From: Actinomycetota bacterium
Lineage (GTDB): Bacteria > Actinomycetota > UBA4738 > HRBIN12
Direction: 5' to 3'
Length of the DNA: 64,000 bases
Assembly: GCA_040754475.1 (NCBI GenBank)
Contig: JBFMCN010000036.1
Coordinates: 24,801 to 88,800 of the forward strand
The notes under the pieces were generated by a model that did not search any database, was not told the DNA's origin, and was given only the letters and a program-made list of their open reading frames with translations. The stretch's first letter is position 1. Each line of letters starts with the position of its first letter. The translations under genes and the position numbers were made by a program. Positions 14,201-38,907 of this stretch are shown piece after piece.

Positions 14201-14273
14201 TGGCCAGGGGCAGAATCGAACTGCCGACACCGCGGTTTTCAGCCGCGTGCTCTGCCAACTGAGCTACCTGGCC
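14201..14273 (-). tRNA. tRNA-Phe (anticodon GAA)
   Basis: Reverse complement GGCCAGGTAGCTCAGTTGGCAGAGCACGCGGCTGAAAACCGCGGTGTCGGCAGTTCGATTCTGCCCCTGGCCA folds as a cloverleaf with anticodon loop CTGAAAA. Confidence 0.9.
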
Positions 14274-14303
14274 GTAACCGGTCCTCGAGGACCGGGCGTC
14301 CAG

Positions 14304-14379
14304 CGCGGGTGACGGGCTTCGATCCCGCGATCTCCGCCTTGACAGGGCGGTGAGGACGGCCAGGCTCCTCTACACCCGC
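14304..14379 (-). tRNA. tRNA-Asp (anticodon GTC)
   Basis: Reverse complement GCGGGTGTAGAGGAGCCTGGCCGTCCTCACCGCCCTGTCAAGGCGGAGATCGCGGGATCGAAGCCCGTCACCCGCG. 7-bp acceptor stem, D, anticodon (CTGTCAA) and T arms all pair. The T-loop is unusual (ATCGAAG). Confidence 0.65.
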
Positions 14380-14395
14380 GTGCTATTCGGTTGTG

Positions 14396-14468
14396 TGCCC
14401 CCAACGGGATTCGAACCCGTGTCGCCGCCTTGAAAGGGCGAAATCCTGGGCCGCTAGACGATGGGGGC
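14396..14468 (-). tRNA. tRNA-Glu (anticodon TTC)
   Basis: Reverse complement GCCCCCATCGTCTAGCGGCCCAGGATTTCGCCCTTTCAAGGCGGCGACACGGGTTCGAATCCCGTTGGGGGCA is close to the canonical bacterial tRNA-Glu. Confidence 0.85.
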
Positions 14469-14826
14469 CCGTGCGTCCCCGGGACGCCCGTTGCGCCCGA
14501 CCTGGGGGCAGCCGAAGAAGTATAGCCTGCCCTGCTGCGGCCTCTGGAGCGGCGGGTTCAACACGTGCGTGGTGGTCGTTCACCATCCGGGTGGGCGCTC
14601 TACGGGAGGTGCCGATCGGCGCCGATGAGAGGTGCATGCGGGCGCTGCTCGAGTTCCTTGGGATCCTCGAGCCTGACCGAGCGCGCCGTGAGCCGGTCAC
14701 GCTGCCCTCGTGGGCTTTCTGGACGGCCCCACTCCTCGTCCTTGCCCTGGTGGTGGCTTCGACCCTCGTGCTCGTGGTCATTCGGGCCTTCTTCTGAACC
14801 GCGGCTCCGCGGGAAGGCGGCTCAGC

Positions 14827-15153
14827 TCAGTCCATCCGCATCTGATCGCCTGGCAGGAGATCGGCATCCTCGGGTGCCTCGAGCACGTGGAGTGCACGCA
14901 GACGTGGGAGCAGGAGCCTCCCGGGGGACACATGCTCGACTCGAACCACGCGAAGGTGTCGGTCGAGGAAGACCGCGGTGATCTCGAACCGCATGCCGAA
15001 CGTGTGGACCGACCGCGCGCGCTCGAACAGCATCGCACGCCGTTCCTGCAGTTGAGTGCGTCCCAGCAGACCTCGCGCCCGCTCGAACCGGCTCGTCGGA
15101 ACATCGACCTGCCAGGAGGAGCCTCGCGGGTCGGTCAACAGAATCGTTCGCAA
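14827..15153 (-). CDS. DUF192 domain-containing protein (108 aa)
   Basis: GLLGR...MLFER..SVHTFGMRFEITAVFLD...RVV matches the DUF192 (COG1430) pattern. No signal peptide. Confidence 0.65.
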   Translation of the reverse strand: MRTILLTDPRGSSWQVDVPTSRFERARGLLGRTQLQERRAMLFERARSVHTFGMRFEITAVFLDRHLRVVRVEHVSPGRLLLPRLRALHVLEAPEDADLLPGDQMRMD

Positions 15154-15192
15154 GAGGGGCCACCGTAGCGGATGGGTCGGACACGCCTTTCC

Positions 15193-15266
15193 GGAGTGGC
15201 TTGTGGAGTGGCGTGCGGAGTGGCTTGTGGAGTGGCTTGTGAGGTCTCAGTGTGAGGTCTCAGTAC
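15193..15266. repeat. tandem repeat block: 12-mer GGAGTGGCTTGT x4 (one variant GGAGTGGCGTGC) followed by 13-mer GAGGTCTCAGTGT x2
   Basis: Read directly in the sequence. It ends 3 nt from the 3' end of tRNA-Lys. Confidence 0.85.
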
Positions 15267-15269
15267 CCG

Positions 15270-15344
15270 TGGGGCGGGCAGGATTCGAACCCGCGACACG
15301 AGGGTTAAAAGCCCCCTGCTCTGACCCGGCTGAGCTACCGCCCC
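15270..15344 (-). tRNA. tRNA-Lys (anticodon TTT)
   Basis: Reverse complement GGGGCGGTAGCTCAGCCGGGTCAGAGCAGGGGGCTTTTAACCCTCGTGTCGCGGGTTCGAATCCTGCCCGCCCCA. Anticodon loop CTTTTAA. Confidence 0.9.
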
Positions 15345-36251: not shown

Positions 36252-37526
36252 ATGGTCTGGAAGTCGAACGGCTCCTCCACGCAGACACGAATAGCCATCG
36301 TAAGCATGCACACATCCCCCCTCGAGCAGCCGGGGACGGGCGACTCGGGCGGCATGAACGTCTACATACGGGCGGCTGCCGAGCGCCTCGCCCGACAGGG
36401 AGTGAACATCGACGTCTTCACGCGGAGACGCGGCCGTGGCATCTCCGAGGTGGAGCAGCTCACGCCTGCCTCTCGGGTCATCAACGTGATGGCGGGACCC
36501 CGCGACCCCGTCCCGAAGCAAGATCTGCCGCGGCTCCTTCCGCAGTTCCTCGGCGGCCTGCTGCGCCACGTGAGGATGGATGGTCGAGGGTATGACCTGG
36601 TCCACAGTCACTACTGGCTCTCCGGGTGGGTTGGGCGCAGCGCGAAGGAGATCTGGGGGGTGCCGCTCGTCGCCTCGTTCCACACCCTCGGCAAGGTGAA
36701 GAACCACTCGCTGGCCGGCGGCGAGAGCCCGGAGCCGCCGGAGCGGCTCGCGAGTGAGGTGGCCGTGATCGAGAACGCCGACCGGATCGTGGCGGCTACT
36801 CCTGCGGAGGCGGCGCAGCTCGTGCGCTTGTACCGAGCCGACCCGGCCCGCATCCGGCTCATTCCGCCGGGTGTCGACCACGGGCTGTTCTTCCCGCGGC
36901 TCAAGGAACAGGCCAAAGCGCGAGTGCATCTCGCGGGAGTCCGGCTGCTGTTGTTCGCCGGAAGGCTGCAGGCGCACAAGGGTCCCGACATCGCGATCCG
37001 AGCGCTGGCGGAGGCCAGCGCTCGAGAGCCGGCGCAGATGCGCGACGTCGTTCTCGGGATCGTGGGCGGTCCGAGCGGCACGGGCAACGGGGCAGAGGTG
37101 GGACGGCTGATCGACCTCGCCCTGACCCTCGGCGTCGAGGATCGGGTCGTGTTCTTCCCCCCTCAGCCGCAGGCGCGTCTGGCCGATTTCTATGCGGCTG
37201 CCGAGTGCCTCCTTGTCCCGTCCCGGTCCGAGTCGTTCGGGCTGGCGGCGCTGGAAGCGCAAGCATGCGCGACCCCGGCCGTGGCGGCGGCCGTGGGCGG
37301 CCTGCGCCACGTCATCGCCGACGGCGTGACCGGGCTGCTCGTGGAGGGGCACGATCCGGCCGACTACGCCGAATGTGTCCTTCAGCTCCTGCGCGATCCG
37401 GAGGTGGCGCAGCGGATGGGGGAGTCCGCGAGCGCTCGCTCCCTCCGGTTCTCTTGGGATGCGACCGCGACCGAGATCCTGTCCGTCTACCGAGAGCTTC
37501 TGGACTCAAGGGTTGCCGCAGGATGA
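36252..37526 (+). CDS. mshA: D-inositol-3-phosphate glycosyltransferase (mycothiol biosynthesis, GT4)
   Basis: IAIVSMHTSPLEQPGTGDSGGMNVYI matches the MshA N-terminal signature. GT4 C-terminal E-x7-E region. Confidence 0.85.
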   Translation: MVWKSNGSSTQTRIAIVSMHTSPLEQPGTGDSGGMNVYIRAAAERLARQGVNIDVFTRRRGRGISEVEQLTPASRVINVMAGPRDPVPKQDLPRLLPQFLGGLLRHVRMDGRGYDLVHSHYWLSGWVGRSAKEIWGVPLVASFHTLGKVKNHSLAGGESPEPPERLASEVAVIENADRIVAATPAEAAQLVRLYRADPARIRLIPPGVDHGLFFPRLKEQAKARVHLAGVRLLLFAGRLQAHKGPDIAIRALAEASAREPAQMRDVVLGIVGGPSGTGNGAEVGRLIDLALTLGVEDRVVFFPPQPQARLADFYAAAECLLVPSRSESFGLAALEAQACATPAVAAAVGGLRHVIADGVTGLLVEGHDPADYAECVLQLLRDPEVAQRMGESASARSLRFSWDATATEILSVYRELLDSRVAAG

Positions 37527-37870
37527 TTCCGGGTGCCGAAGGGCCTCGTTCCGATGCTCTTCTTGTCACTCTTTCTGTCGAACGCCCTACCAGCATATAT
37601 TGGGCGTGACCAGGCAGTTCTCGGAGTTGACCGCCCTCAGCGTGGCCGGTAGATTTCCGGTCGCTCCGAGCAGCTGGAGCGGCTGAATCAGGGAACCGAA
37701 GTGGGGACCCCTGGGAAAGCCGTAAGGCGAACTGGGCGCACTTGGTCGTACGGTTGGGAAGGCCAACTAGCTGTGCGGGCGGGGAGGCTCGGGACGCCCC
37801 AAAGCCCAACGAAAGGGTCTACCGCCAGGAAACCAAGACAGCTGCGGAGTTGCTCGGGGCACCTGAGCCC

Positions 37871-37925
37871 GAGGGGCTGATGGTGGTCGGAAGCTTCGGC
37901 TTCTGGCGAGCCGGAGGTCCCTCGG
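37871..37925 (+). terminator. long hairpin (11-bp GC-rich outer stem GAGCCCGAGGG/CCCTCGGGCTC enclosing a UUCG-loop inner hairpin) followed by TTTTT
   Basis: Read directly. Lies about 60 nt upstream of the PRODH start, at the 3' end of a 450-nt non-coding region. Confidence 0.5.
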
Positions 37926-37980
37926 GCTCTTTTTACTGCCCTTCCTATACTCGCGGGGCCATGCCCGAAGGGAACACGCC

Positions 37981-38907
37981 TTGACGACTCCGGCCTTCCG
38001 CATGCTCGTTGGGTGGATGGTCTCGTTCCCGTGGGTCCGGTGGGTCGTCAGTCGGACGAGGCCGGGCCGTGCCGTTGCTTCGAGGTTCGTCGCGGGGGAG
38101 TCGCTCGACTCGGGGATCGTGGCCGTCCGGGCGCTCGAGGCGGAAGGGATCGCCGTCGCCCTCAGTCACCTCGGAGAGAACGTTGCCGCTCCGTGGCAGG
38201 CGGATGCTGCTGCCGCCGCGTACGTCCGTTCCATCGAGCGACTCAGCGCGGAGCCGGGGCTCGACTGCTCGATCTCCGTGAAGCTCACGCAGCTCGGGCT
38301 CGACGTGTCGAAGGAGCTCTGCGTCTCCGAGCTCGAGCGCGTGCTCGACGCGGGCGAGCGTCTCGGGATGCTCGTCACGATCGACATGGAGAGCTCCACT
38401 CACGTGGACAGAACGCTCGACGTGTTCCGCGAGCTTCGGGCTCGTCACGAGGGTCTGGGGATATGCCTTCAGTCCTGCCTGCGGAGGACGCCTGCGGACC
38501 TGGAGACTCTCCCAGGGGGCTCTGTCGTCAGGCTCGTCAAGGGTGCATACCTGGAACCGTCCGAGATCGCGCTACCGAGGCGGAGGGACGTCGACTTGGC
38601 GTTCGCTCGCTGTTTCGTCACCCTGCTCGCCCGCGGCCATACCGTGCACGTGGCCACTCACGATCAGCGGCTCCTCAATGGAGCCCGGCGGATCGTGGAG
38701 CGCGACGGGGTTCCTCGGTCGCGCGTGGAGTTCCAGATGCTTTACGGTGTGCGACGAGATCTGCAGACGCGGCTCGCACGCCAGGGATGCCCGGTCCGGG
38801 TCTACGTTCCGTACGGGAGCGATTGGTACCCGTACCTGGCTCGACGCCTGGCCGAGCGACCTGCAAACATGTGGTTCTTCCTGTCGAACCTTGTGAGGAC
38901 GCGATGA
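37981..38907 (+). CDS. proline dehydrogenase (monofunctional PRODH)
   Basis: FAD-dependent PRODH TIM-barrel motifs (VKLTQLGLD, VRLVKGAY, YGSDWYPYLARRLAERPANMWFF). TTG 37981 or ATG 38002 as start. Confidence 0.85.
   Translation: MTTPAFRMLVGWMVSFPWVRWVVSRTRPGRAVASRFVAGESLDSGIVAVRALEAEGIAVALSHLGENVAAPWQADAAAAAYVRSIERLSAEPGLDCSISVKLTQLGLDVSKELCVSELERVLDAGERLGMLVTIDMESSTHVDRTLDVFRELRARHEGLGICLQSCLRRTPADLETLPGGSVVRLVKGAYLEPSEIALPRRRDVDLAFARCFVTLLARGHTVHVATHDQRLLNGARRIVERDGVPRSRVEFQMLYGVRRDLQTRLARQGCPVRVYVPYGSDWYPYLARRLAERPANMWFFLSNLVRTR

What the first reader, a model, noticed from the sequence alone, without database searches (positions are those of the whole stretch)
37527..37980. 450-nt structured non-coding region between mshA and proline dehydrogenase, ending in a compound hairpin plus U-tract
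There is no credible ORF; only low-complexity frames are present. Several internal stem-loops are visible (CTCCGAGCAGCTGGAG; CGGAAGC-TTCG-GCTTCTG with a UUCG tetraloop). An 11-bp GC stem GAGCCCGAGGG/CCCTCGGGCTC is followed by TTTTT about 60 nt before the PRODH start. This fits either an independently transcribed sRNA ending at the terminator or a long cis-regulatory leader/attenuator for the PRODH-proC operon. It does not match RNase P, tmRNA, SRP, cobalamin or glycine riboswitch hallmarks that can be checked by eye.
Basis: seen in the sequence. Interest (0 to 1): 0.6.

Follow-up and report, generated by a model that had tools for sequence, protein, structure and literature searches.

The report
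New conserved structured RNA gene
The gap between mshA and proline dehydrogenase holds a stand-alone gene for a ~272-nt structured RNA, with its own promoter and terminator, from a family absent from Rfam but present at the same spot in nearly all of about 200 related uncultured soil Actinomycetota loci; its function is unknown.

Summary
Bases 37527-37662 are conserved promoter and regulatory DNA. Bases 37663-37934 (+) are an RNA gene of about 272 nt.

Evidence for a real RNA:
- The + strand folds far better than shuffles (z -4.4); the - strand does not (z +0.8).
- 186 related loci hold a homologue. The RNA is about 91% identical across 67 window-type sequences, while flanking PRODH proteins are only 53-72% identical.
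- In the consensus fold, 99.4% of pair cells are paired. 24 pairs show compensatory changes, against 10.5±1.5 in shuffles.
- There is no codon periodicity (39/39/39) and no Pfam hit.

No Rfam 15 family matches any variant, and ARAGORN finds nothing.

The fold has a 13-bp closing helix P1, a variable central domain, and a near-invariant 27-bp 3' hairpin with a U-rich tail. The central domain is a rod here and an array of 3-10 GNRA hairpins in longer relatives.

Synteny is fixed: mshA-(GNAT)-RNA-(TetR)-(PRODH)-proC. The downstream gene has its own leaderless promoter in 146 of 163 loci, so the attenuator reading is disfavoured.

Function is unknown. My best guess is a trans-acting, protein-binding RNA, possibly this lineage's RNA-polymerase-binding RNA.

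The parts
37562..37574 (+). Conserved upstream DNA element CTTGTCACTCTTT. It is either a transcription-factor site or the -35 part of a weak distal promoter, with TACCAG at 37588-37593.
   Evidence: TTGTCAC is at least 95% conserved in 129 unique upstream regions across all RNA subtypes. It occurs only once in the window. Its function is inferred, not shown.
37587..37616 (+). Two direct repeats, consensus (S)T(G/A)ACCWGCGG, 20-21 nt apart. In the window they read CTACCAGC and GTGACCAGG. The second ends about 10 nt upstream of the -35 box. Probably a binding site for an unidentified regulator.
   Evidence: Conserved blocks are separated by variable spacers in A2 and in the 129-sequence upstream alignment. 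This is the only exact match to the pattern in the window. Function inferred.
37627..37655 (+). Promoter of the RNA gene: -35 TTGACC (37627-37632), 17-nt spacer, -10 TAGATT (37650-37655). The predicted start is at 37662-37663.
   Evidence: It is the only sigma-70-like site found in 37300-38200, against 0.0±0.2 in shuffles. TTGAC and the TA and final T of the -10 box are at least 95% conserved while the spacer varies. The start site is inferred from spacing, not mapped.
37663..37934 (+). The RNA gene itself, about 272 nt, a new family.
   Evidence: nhmmer E-values of 1e-60 to 1e-100 in 35 genome loci, and homologues in 186 of the first 200 loci fetched (L001-L200). Mean column identity is 91% over 67 sequences. 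99.4% of pair cells are paired. Only the + strand is significantly structured.
37663..37675 (+). P1, 5' strand (GCUCCGAGCAGCU). Pairs with 37848-37860.
   Evidence: In 106 unique family members, pair 6:31 is G-C in 64 and A-U in 42; pair 10:27 is A-U in 100 and G-C in 6; pair 12:25 is C-G, U-G or U-A.
37679..37845 (+). Central domain. In this subtype it is one long irregular hairpin: P2 37679-85/37839-45, P4 37702-07/37818-24, P5 37710-15/37805-16, P6 37726-29/37795-98, P7 37732-37/37787-92, P8-P9 37741-57/37767-83. The internal loops are almost invariant and purine-rich (GUCAGGGAACCGAAG, GGGAAAGCCGUAAGG, CCCCAAAGCCCAACGAAAGG, AGGAAACCAAGACAGC).
   Evidence: Nested covarying pairs (A4 columns): 22:184 (UA 44 / CG 21), 42:166 (GC 46 / CG 21), 68:136 (CG 48 / GC 13 / UG 6), 75:129, 76:128, 84:121 and 96:110 (UA 47 / CG 15). 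P3 and P5 never vary, so they remain untested.
37848..37860 (+). P1, 3' strand (GAGUUGCUCGGGGC region).
   Evidence: Same evidence as for the 5' strand.
37865..37929 (+). 3' hairpin of 27 bp: a 14-bp lower stem, a tandem GA/GA internal loop, a 4-bp stem, a G/GA loop, then a 9-bp stem capped by UUCG (37895-37898). It is the best-conserved part of the whole family and serves as the terminator stem.
   Evidence: Pair 51:124 (GC 78 / AU 19 / GU 9), pair 59:116 (CG 60 / GC 18 / UG 12), 65:110, 66:109 and 80-84:89-93 covary in 106 variants. Seven pairs show double changes in A4.
37930..37934 (+). U-tract (TTTTT) of the intrinsic terminator.
   Evidence: A terminator-like site was found here. In the family, 116 of 137 unique tails have at least 5 T in the 9 nt after the stem.
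37946..37984 (+). Not part of the RNA. This is the separate promoter and start region of the downstream gene: -10 TATACT (37946-37951), 9 nt, then ATG 37961 opening a 7-codon ORF (MPEGNTP, stop TGA 37982-37984) whose stop overlaps the PRODH TTG start (37981).
   Evidence: Read from the sequence. The same TANNNT-N5-11-start layout occurs in 146 of 163 unique loci against 4±2.3 in shuffles. L128 has the same short ORF (MPERMTP).

Best explanation
SHOWN. Bases 37663-37934 (+) are a single-copy, non-coding gene for a stable structured RNA of a previously uncatalogued family. The gene has its own near-consensus sigma-A-type promoter, preceded by conserved regulator-site-like repeats. The transcript should begin at the first base of a 13-bp closing helix (P1). 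It ends in a very conserved 27-bp hairpin followed by a U-rich tract. The element sits at a fixed position, mshA-(GNAT)-RNA-(TetR)-(PRODH)-proC, in an abundant uncultured Actinomycetota lineage.

INFERRED. The next gene starts from its own leaderless promoter. P1 and the 3' hairpin are conserved in sequence well beyond what pairing alone requires, while the central domain is free to expand from 160 to about 400 nt. From this I infer that the RNA acts in trans as a protein-binding or scaffold RNA, not as a leader.

MOST SPECIFIC GUESS. It may be this lineage's abundant RNA-polymerase-associated RNA, a functional analogue of 6S, Ms1 or CoRP. Such RNAs are lineage-specific and not alignable to each other in Actinobacteria. 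This last step is a guess by analogy, worth roughly 0.25 on its own. The confidence figure below applies to the broader claim: a stand-alone, trans-acting structured RNA rather than an attenuator.
For: - Strand-specific stability: z -4.36 on + against +0.78 on -.
- Conservation: E 1e-60 to 1e-100 and 91% column identity, next to PRODH proteins that are 53-72% identical.
- Covariation: 99.4% of cells paired and 24 pairs with double changes against 10.5±1.5 (0 of 500 shuffles reach this); slid controls give 1-8. 14 of 36 pairs covary in P1 plus the 3' hairpin over 106 variants. 32 of 87 pairs covary in the long subtype.
- Not coding.
- Promoter conserved with a variable spacer. U-rich tail in 116 of 137 members.
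- Single copy in the window and in every locus.
- A search seeded only on the RNA pattern returned 116 true loci, every one with recognisable flanking genes in the same synteny.
- The downstream gene has its own leaderless promoter in 146 of 163 loci.
- Lineage-specific RNAP-binding RNAs of 300-516 nt, with no mutual sequence similarity, are documented in Actinobacteria, and the authors propose one per species (PMC9130861, PMC11077062).
Against: - There are no expression data, so the start and end are predicted, not mapped.
- No partner protein is identified. Nothing ties the RNA to RNA polymerase except analogy.
- The central domain, where a 6S-like bubble would sit, is not conserved between subtypes.
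- The 3' end is not part of the closing stem, as it is in 6S RNA.
- The strict co-orientation and adjacency with the TetR/PRODH/proC cluster could still reflect a cis relationship. In some members the gap to the next start codon is only about 20-35 nt and the U-tract is poor (TACTATGTG tails).
Confidence: 0.55

Rival explanations
1. Cis-acting leader or attenuator. Transcription from the RNA promoter is terminated or read through at the 3' hairpin in response to proline, tRNA-Pro or a protein, and this controls TetR/PRODH/proC. A variant is transcriptional interference with the adjacent promoter.
For: - The RNA is always upstream of, and co-oriented with, the TetR/PRODH/proC cluster.
- The gap to the next start is about 20-35 nt in some loci.
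- The U-tract quality varies.
- From my own knowledge, not tested here: proline T-boxes control proBA and proI in Bacillus.
Against: - The next gene has its own -10 box at leaderless distance in 146 of 163 loci, and no Shine-Dalgarno sequence is visible for read-through transcripts.
- The gene immediately downstream differs between genomes, TetR or PRODH.
- The putative sensor domain is replaced between subtypes while the terminator stem stays invariant.
- The only alternative pairing that could compete with the terminator is 5 bp, and it is not supported by the P1 covariation (read, 38 alignments).
- No T-box or other riboswitch model matches, even at E up to 10.
- PRODH-proC loci exist without the RNA.
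Confidence: 0.12
2. Base-pairing regulatory sRNA. Conserved single-stranded loops pair with target mRNAs, as with 6C and other actinobacterial sRNAs. Expression would be controlled by the regulator that binds the upstream repeats.
For: - It is a stand-alone gene with a promoter, regulator-like upstream sites and a terminator.
- Several invariant unpaired stretches exist in the window subtype.
Against: - 270-520 nt is large for a seed-type sRNA.
- The invariant loops of the window subtype are absent from the long subtypes. The parts shared by all members are helices (P1 and the 3' hairpin) and a 4-5-nt linker.
- No target was identified.
Confidence: 0.13
3. Protein sponge with repeated binding motifs (CsrB/RsmZ-like), or a self-assembling or catalytic 'ornate' RNA (like raiA, ROOL or GOLLD). 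In this reading the GNRA-capped hairpins are the working units.
For: - Long subtypes carry 3-10 (mode 6) hairpins of nearly the same design: GCC-GCAA/GCGA-GGC with purine-rich internal loops.
- Copy number varies between genomes, as it does in sponge RNAs.
- Upstream activator-like repeats recall the GacA boxes of rsmY/Z (my own knowledge).
Against: - The window subtype keeps at most one such hairpin (GCC-GUAA-GGC), and covariation at 68:136 favours a competing long-range helix.
- GGA and GGAA motifs are not enriched over dinucleotide shuffles in most members tested, with z between -0.6 and 2.6 (only the GGGAA 5-mer reaches z 2.3-3.2, in the three window-type RNAs).
- No candidate binding protein was found.
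Confidence: 0.15
4. Not an RNA gene: only conserved DNA (operators, promoter, terminator of mshA) or a decayed coding remnant.
For: The first 135 nt of the flagged region are indeed DNA-level signals.
Against: - Compensatory changes preserve pairing, including many G-U pairs that are meaningful only in + strand RNA.
- Folding is strand-asymmetric.
- There is no codon phase.
- 270 nt at 91% identity is far more than operators would need.
Confidence: 0.03

Closest known systems
Ms1 RNA (Mycobacterium, Streptomyces scr3559) and CoRP RNA (Corynebacterium): RNA-polymerase-core-binding RNAs of Actinobacteria
   Same: - Stand-alone, roughly 300-500-nt, highly structured RNAs of Actinobacteria.
- Lineage-specific, at fixed syntenic positions.
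- Not alignable between lineages (PMC9130861, PMC11077062).
- Long irregular helices plus an extra 3' hairpin.
   Different: - The synteny differs. Ms1 lies next to HAD-hydrolase and oxidoreductase genes, and CoRP lies between tRNA genes. This RNA lies between mshA and TetR/PRODH/proC.
- There is no sequence similarity to S. coelicolor Ms1.
- RNAP binding is untested.
6S RNA (Rfam RF00013)
   Same: In the window subtype, the domain closed by P1 is a rod of about 200 nt with conserved internal loops, similar in overall size and shape to 6S RNA.
   Different: - No covariance-model match even at E up to 10.
- The 3' end is not in the closing stem.
- The largest internal loop is about 10 x 6 nt (plus a 6-nt bulge), and it is not conserved in the long subtypes, which are multi-branched.
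Orphan large bacterial ncRNAs (raiA motif, ROOL, GOLLD, OLE)
   Same: - A well-conserved, covariation-supported, multi-helix RNA of unknown function, found by comparative analysis.
- Rich in GNRA tetraloops.
   Different: - No match to any of these Rfam models.
- Different taxon and different gene context.
- Smaller than ROOL, GOLLD and OLE.
T-box and other amino-acid-responsive leaders (for example the proline T-boxes of Bacillus proBA/proI)
   Same: - Lies upstream of proline-metabolism genes.
- Ends in a hairpin plus U-tract.
   Different: - No T-box model match.
- The downstream gene has its own leaderless promoter.
- No conserved specifier or antiterminator.
- The sensor-sized domain is variable.
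CsrB/RsmY/RsmZ protein-sponge sRNAs
   Same: - Own promoter with conserved upstream repeats, and an intrinsic terminator.
- A variable number of near-identical hairpins in the long subtypes.
   Different: - The repeated unit is a GNRA-capped hairpin, not a GGA loop.
- GGA is not enriched.
- The window subtype has lost the hairpin array.

Membership tests
Any Rfam 15 family (4227 models, including RNase P, tmRNA, SRP, 6S, T-box, riboswitches, raiA, ROOL, GOLLD, OLE, HEARO) | Covariance-model score at or above the family's gathering threshold | tested here: not met
   Only four tRNAs elsewhere in the window reach threshold. In 37350-38150 at E up to 10 there are only chance-level miRNA and lncRNA hits of 13-16 bits. 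Seven loci carrying other subtypes give no relevant hit at E up to 1.
tRNA / tmRNA | tRNA-like domain and tag reading frame detectable by ARAGORN | tested here: not met
   0 genes found in 37300-38200.
6S RNA | 5' and 3' ends pair in a closing stem; large central bubble conserved across members; terminal stem | tested here: not met
   The 3' end lies in a separate 65-nt hairpin. The largest loop is about 10 x 6 nt. The long subtypes are multi-branched rather than bubble-containing rods.
6S RNA / Ms1 / CoRP | Physical association with RNA polymerase holoenzyme or core | not testable with these tools
Ms1 RNA | Conserved synteny with HAD-IB hydrolase, oxidoreductase and 'inhibition of morphological differentiation' genes (PMC9130861) | tested here: not met
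   The neighbours are MshA (TIGR03449, 474 bits, above its cut-off), GNAT, TetR, PRODH and ProC.
Ms1 RNA | Sequence similarity to a validated Ms1 | tested here: not met
   nhmmer finds no hit, and blastn gives only chance 11-17-nt matches to S. coelicolor Ms1. This is weak evidence, because validated Ms1 RNAs of different genera are also not alignable to each other.
Transcription attenuator / riboswitch leader | Regulated gene is on the same transcript, downstream of the terminator | tested here: not met
   A TANNNT box lies 5-11 nt upstream of an in-frame start in 146 of 163 unique loci, against 4±2.3 in shuffles. This indicates a separate leaderless promoter.
Transcription attenuator / riboswitch leader | Conserved sensor domain and a mutually exclusive antiterminator | tested here: not met
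   The central domain differs completely between subtypes. Only a 5-bp alternative pairing is available, and the G:C to A:U switch in P1 is not mirrored in the terminator.
Intrinsic (Rho-independent) terminator | G+C-rich hairpin immediately followed by a U-tract | tested here: met
   The window has TTTTT right after the stem. 116 of 137 family tails have at least 5 T in 9 nt; a minority are poor.
CsrB/Rsm-type sponge | Many GGA motifs presented in loops, enriched over background | tested here: not met
   GGA and GGAA counts fall within about 0-2.6 sd of dinucleotide shuffles in 7 representative RNAs.
Protein-coding gene / small ORF | Codon-phase substitution pattern; a conserved open frame; a domain match | tested here: not met
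   Variable columns are 39/39/39 by codon phase. No frame is open in all members. There are no Pfam hits.
Mobile or repeated element (REP, MITE, phage-borne RNA) | Multiple copies per genome, or presence in viral contigs | tested here: not met
   There is one copy in the window and one per locus. There are no true hits in IMG/VR.

The most novel reading that the evidence does not exclude
The RNA founds a new class of housekeeping-type ribonucleoprotein RNA in a widespread uncultured soil Actinomycetota lineage. The most likely version is a third or fourth independent 'solution' to RNA-polymerase sequestration, alongside 6S, Ms1 and CoRP. It would have a modular build: an invariant P1 plus 3' hairpin as the binding core, and an expandable array of GNRA hairpins.
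Probability: 0.25. Interest if true: 0.75.

Novelty: new variant of a known kind. Interest (0 to 1): 0.6.

Why it matters
Stand-alone structured RNAs of 270-520 nt that are conserved at rRNA-like levels are rare, and most known ones turned out to be central machines or global regulators. This one is absent from Rfam. It also comes with a ready-made comparative data set of more than 130 unique sequences with clear covariation.

If it is an RNA-polymerase-binding RNA, it would support the proposal that every bacterial lineage has one, and it would extend that proposal to uncultured Actinomycetota. If it is not, it is a new orphan RNA class with an unusual modular architecture that is worth structural and biochemical study.

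For annotation, it corrects the picture of this locus. PRODH/proC is not preceded by a long leader, but by a separate RNA gene and a leaderless promoter.

Tried and rejected
- Known RNA families. Rfam at gathering and permissive thresholds, on the window and on seven loci with other subtypes, plus ARAGORN, found nothing.
- RNase P, tmRNA and SRP by eye. GGGAAAGCC and ACAG resemble RNase P CR-I and CR-V only superficially, and they are missing from the long subtypes. Rejected.
- T-box or proline attenuator. Rejected for the reasons given under the attenuator rival.
- Coding potential. No codon phase, no conserved frame, no Pfam hit.
- CsrA-type GGA sponge. GGA and GGAA are not enriched.
- Ms1 homology. 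Synteny and sequence both negative. This cannot exclude functional analogy.
- Dispersed repeat or phage origin. Single copy, and no viral hits: the 38 viral matches to a short sub-pattern were chance.
- Regulon search. The upstream motifs do not recur in the 64-kb window, so the regulator stays unidentified. Resemblances to GlnR, PhoP and MtrA boxes, recalled from memory, did not fit the spacing and were dropped.
- Identifying the organism. All relatives are unnamed MAGs. The exact PRODH protein is not in the contig index. My recollection that 'HRbin12' (L026) belongs to GTDB class UBA4738 could not be tested; the literature on that name says nothing about RNAs.
- Literature searches for this RNA found nothing.
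- RNAalifold gives two different pairings for 37689-37715, depending on the alignment used. Those positions never vary, so P3 and P5 remain unresolved.

Full report
WHAT IS THERE

The flagged interval lies between a gene that meets the NCBIfam equivalog cut-off for MshA (36252-37526, 474 bits against a cut-off of 462) and a Thermus-type monofunctional proline dehydrogenase (37981-38907). ProC follows PRODH.

As RNA, the + strand folds at -225 kcal/mol, against -198±6 for dinucleotide shuffles (z -4.36). The - strand is no better than shuffles (z +0.78). That asymmetry is what a G-U-rich RNA read from the + strand would produce.

No ORF here is credible. There are no Pfam hits. Variable alignment columns split 39/39/39 over the three codon phases, and no frame stays open in all relatives.

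RELATIVES

PRODH homologues come only from unnamed Actinomycetota MAGs and metagenomes. I fetched 80 PRODH loci from species-representative genomes. In these, the intergenic sequence is far better conserved than the proteins around it. nhmmer E-values run from 1e-60 to 1e-86 over about 390 nt in 35 loci, with weaker two-part hits in about 40 more. A profile of the core raises the values to 1e-100.

A second search was seeded only on a 25-nt degenerate RNA pattern and run against metagenome contigs. 116 of them are true copies and four are chance matches inside coding DNA.

In this unbiased set the gene order is always mshA - (GNAT acetyltransferase, optional) - RNA - TetR-family regulator - (PRODH, optional) - proC, all on one strand. 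The window genome and one subgroup lack the TetR gene, and there is no TetR or GNAT homologue anywhere in the 64-kb window. There is one copy per locus. None occurs in viral contigs.

WHERE THE RNA STARTS AND STOPS

The alignments (A2, and 129 unique upstream regions) show two different kinds of conservation.

Upstream of 37662, short invariant blocks are separated by variable spacers:
- TTGTCACTCTTT;
- two direct repeats, (S)TGACCWGCGG, 20-21 nt apart;
- TTGACC, a variable 17-nt spacer, then TA(C/G)ATT.

The last pair is the only sigma-70-like promoter found by the scan. It places the start at 37662-37663, which is exactly the first base of helix P1.

From there to the T-run at 37930-37934 the sequence is almost invariant, with 91% mean column identity over 67 distinct sequences. 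After the hairpin the tail is U-rich in 116 of 137 members, and conservation then stops. The start and end are predictions, not mapped ends.

STRUCTURE

P1 (37663-75 with 37848-60) closes a central domain. A 4-5-nt linker then leads into a 27-bp 3' hairpin (37865-37929) with a tandem GA/GA internal loop and a UUCG cap.

I made 106 unique "mini" constructs from all subtypes, each with the central domain removed in silico. In these, 14 of 36 pairs show compensatory double changes. Examples are G-C 64 / A-U 42 at one P1 pair and G-C 78 / A-U 19 / G-U 9 in the lower stem.

For the window subtype, the consensus fold on 67 sequences has 99.4% of cells paired. 24 pairs show double changes, against 10.5±1.5 in column shuffles (0 of 500 shuffles reach this). 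Structures with the partner slid by 1-3 columns give only 1-8.

An unbiased all-against-all scan for covarying columns picks out the same nested pairs: 22:184, 42:166, 68:136, 75:129, 76:128, 84:121 and 96:110. Here the central domain is therefore one long irregular hairpin with invariant purine-rich internal loops. Two short helices, P3 and P5, never vary, and RNAalifold pairs them differently depending on the alignment. They remain untested.

FAMILY ANATOMY

Members range from 260 to 520 nt. What all share is the upstream DNA signals, P1, the linker and the 3' hairpin.

The central domain changes. In the 360-520-nt members it is a multi-branched array of 3-10 (mode 6) near-identical hairpins. 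Most are GCC-GCAA-GGC or GCC-GCGA-GGC, sitting above purine-rich internal loops. In that subtype 32 of 87 predicted pairs covary. The window subtype retains at most one remnant of this design, GCC-GUAA-GGC.

WHY IT IS NOT A LEADER

- The gene that follows is TetR in most genomes and PRODH in others.
- Whichever gene follows, a TANNNT box sits 5-11 nt upstream of an in-frame start codon in 146 of 163 unique loci, against 4±2.3 after shuffling the spacer. A CTTGTn -35 box is often present too. This is the classic actinobacterial leaderless-mRNA layout. The window has TATACT at 37946-51.
- Read-through transcripts would carry no visible ribosome-binding site.
- The part that would have to sense a signal is the least conserved part, while the terminator stem is the most conserved.
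- The G:C to A:U switch in P1 has no counterpart in the terminator, so there is no covariation support for an antiterminator.
- PRODH-proC loci without any RNA, mshA or TetR within 2.5 kb upstream also exist.

WHAT IT IS NOT

No Rfam 15 model matches any subtype, even permissively. ARAGORN finds nothing. The Ms1 synteny is different, and there is no similarity to the S. coelicolor Ms1 sequence. GGA and GGAA motifs are not enriched, so a CsrB-like sponge is unsupported. I found no paper describing this RNA.

MOST LIKELY MODE OF ACTION

The following features are shown: a strong, conserved and apparently regulated promoter; a 5' end buried in a helix; an intrinsic terminator; a single syntenic copy; sequence invariance of helices beyond what pairing needs; and a freely expandable peripheral domain. 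Together these are the signature of RNAs that work in trans as partners of proteins, such as RNase P, SRP, 6S and Ms1.

Actinobacteria are known to carry abundant, lineage-specific RNA-polymerase-binding RNAs that cannot be aligned with one another: Ms1 at about 300 nt and CoRP at 516 nt. The authors of that work propose one such RNA per species. By analogy I rank an RNAP-associated role as the single most likely specific function, at about 0.25. The broader statement, a trans-acting protein-binding or scaffold RNA, I put at about 0.55.

This step is inference only. The non-conservation of the central domain and the free 3' hairpin argue against a 6S-like promoter mimic. The rivals are a cis role (0.12), a base-pairing sRNA (0.13), and a hairpin-array sponge or self-assembling RNA (0.15).

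VERDICT

This is a real, well-supported and previously uncatalogued structured RNA gene. The attenuator reading is not. Function remains open.

Noticed in passing
window 37946-37984: Downstream of the RNA terminator, a -10 box (TATACT) is followed 9 nt later by ATG 37961, which opens a 7-codon ORF (MPEGNTP). Its stop, TGA 37982-84, overlaps the annotated PRODH start TTG 37981 (a TTGA overlap). L128 has the same layout (MPERMTP). In both, 2 of the 7 codons are proline. A leaderless mini-ORF translationally coupled to a proline-catabolic gene might be a proline-sensitive device, or just a remnant of the lost TetR gene.
   Followed up: partly
window 37562-37616, and the same region of all loci: Conserved DNA motifs lie upstream of the RNA promoter: TTGTCACTCTTT, plus two direct repeats (S)TGACCWGCGG spaced about 21 bp apart, in phase with the -35 box TTGACC. 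CTTGTC-N18-TACCWG also resembles the CTTGTn-N17-19-TACCGT promoters of the downstream genes. It could therefore be a weak distal promoter rather than a regulator site. No other copy occurs in the window.
   Followed up: partly
L017 1834-2478, L064 1847-2491 and most loci; absent from the window: The TetR-family regulator that normally follows the RNA is unusually conserved: 80-92% identity among the top 120 hits, and 3380 proteins at E<=1e-20. PRODH in the same genomes is only 53-72% identical. The window genome and the L006-type subgroup have lost it from this locus. In L017 its promoter overlaps a perfect palindrome, GTACCGAACGGTAC, which is a possible operator.
   Followed up: partly
L014 (JBHGAT010000039.1) and L079 (JBLMXP010000254.1): Contigs carrying this typical actinobacterial mshA-RNA-TetR-PRODH-proC locus are deposited under 'Candidatus Velamenicoccus archaeovorus' and 'Planctomycetaceae bacterium'. 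They are probably mis-binned contigs.
   Followed up: no
L031, L045, L047, L069: These PRODH-proC loci have 2.5 kb of upstream sequence but no RNA, mshA or TetR. The synteny is therefore broken in some relatives. I did not determine whether those genomes carry the RNA elsewhere.
   Followed up: no
window 14201-15344 (-): A cluster of four tRNA genes. These are the only Rfam hits in the window at gathering threshold.
   Followed up: no
window 37726-37729 against 37719-37728: The GGC of GCC-GUAA-GGC can pair either locally, giving a GNRA hairpin homologous to the repeated hairpins of the long subtypes, or with 37795-37798 to form P6, which is supported by covariation at 68:136. This is a possible conformational alternative and is unresolved.
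   Followed up: partly
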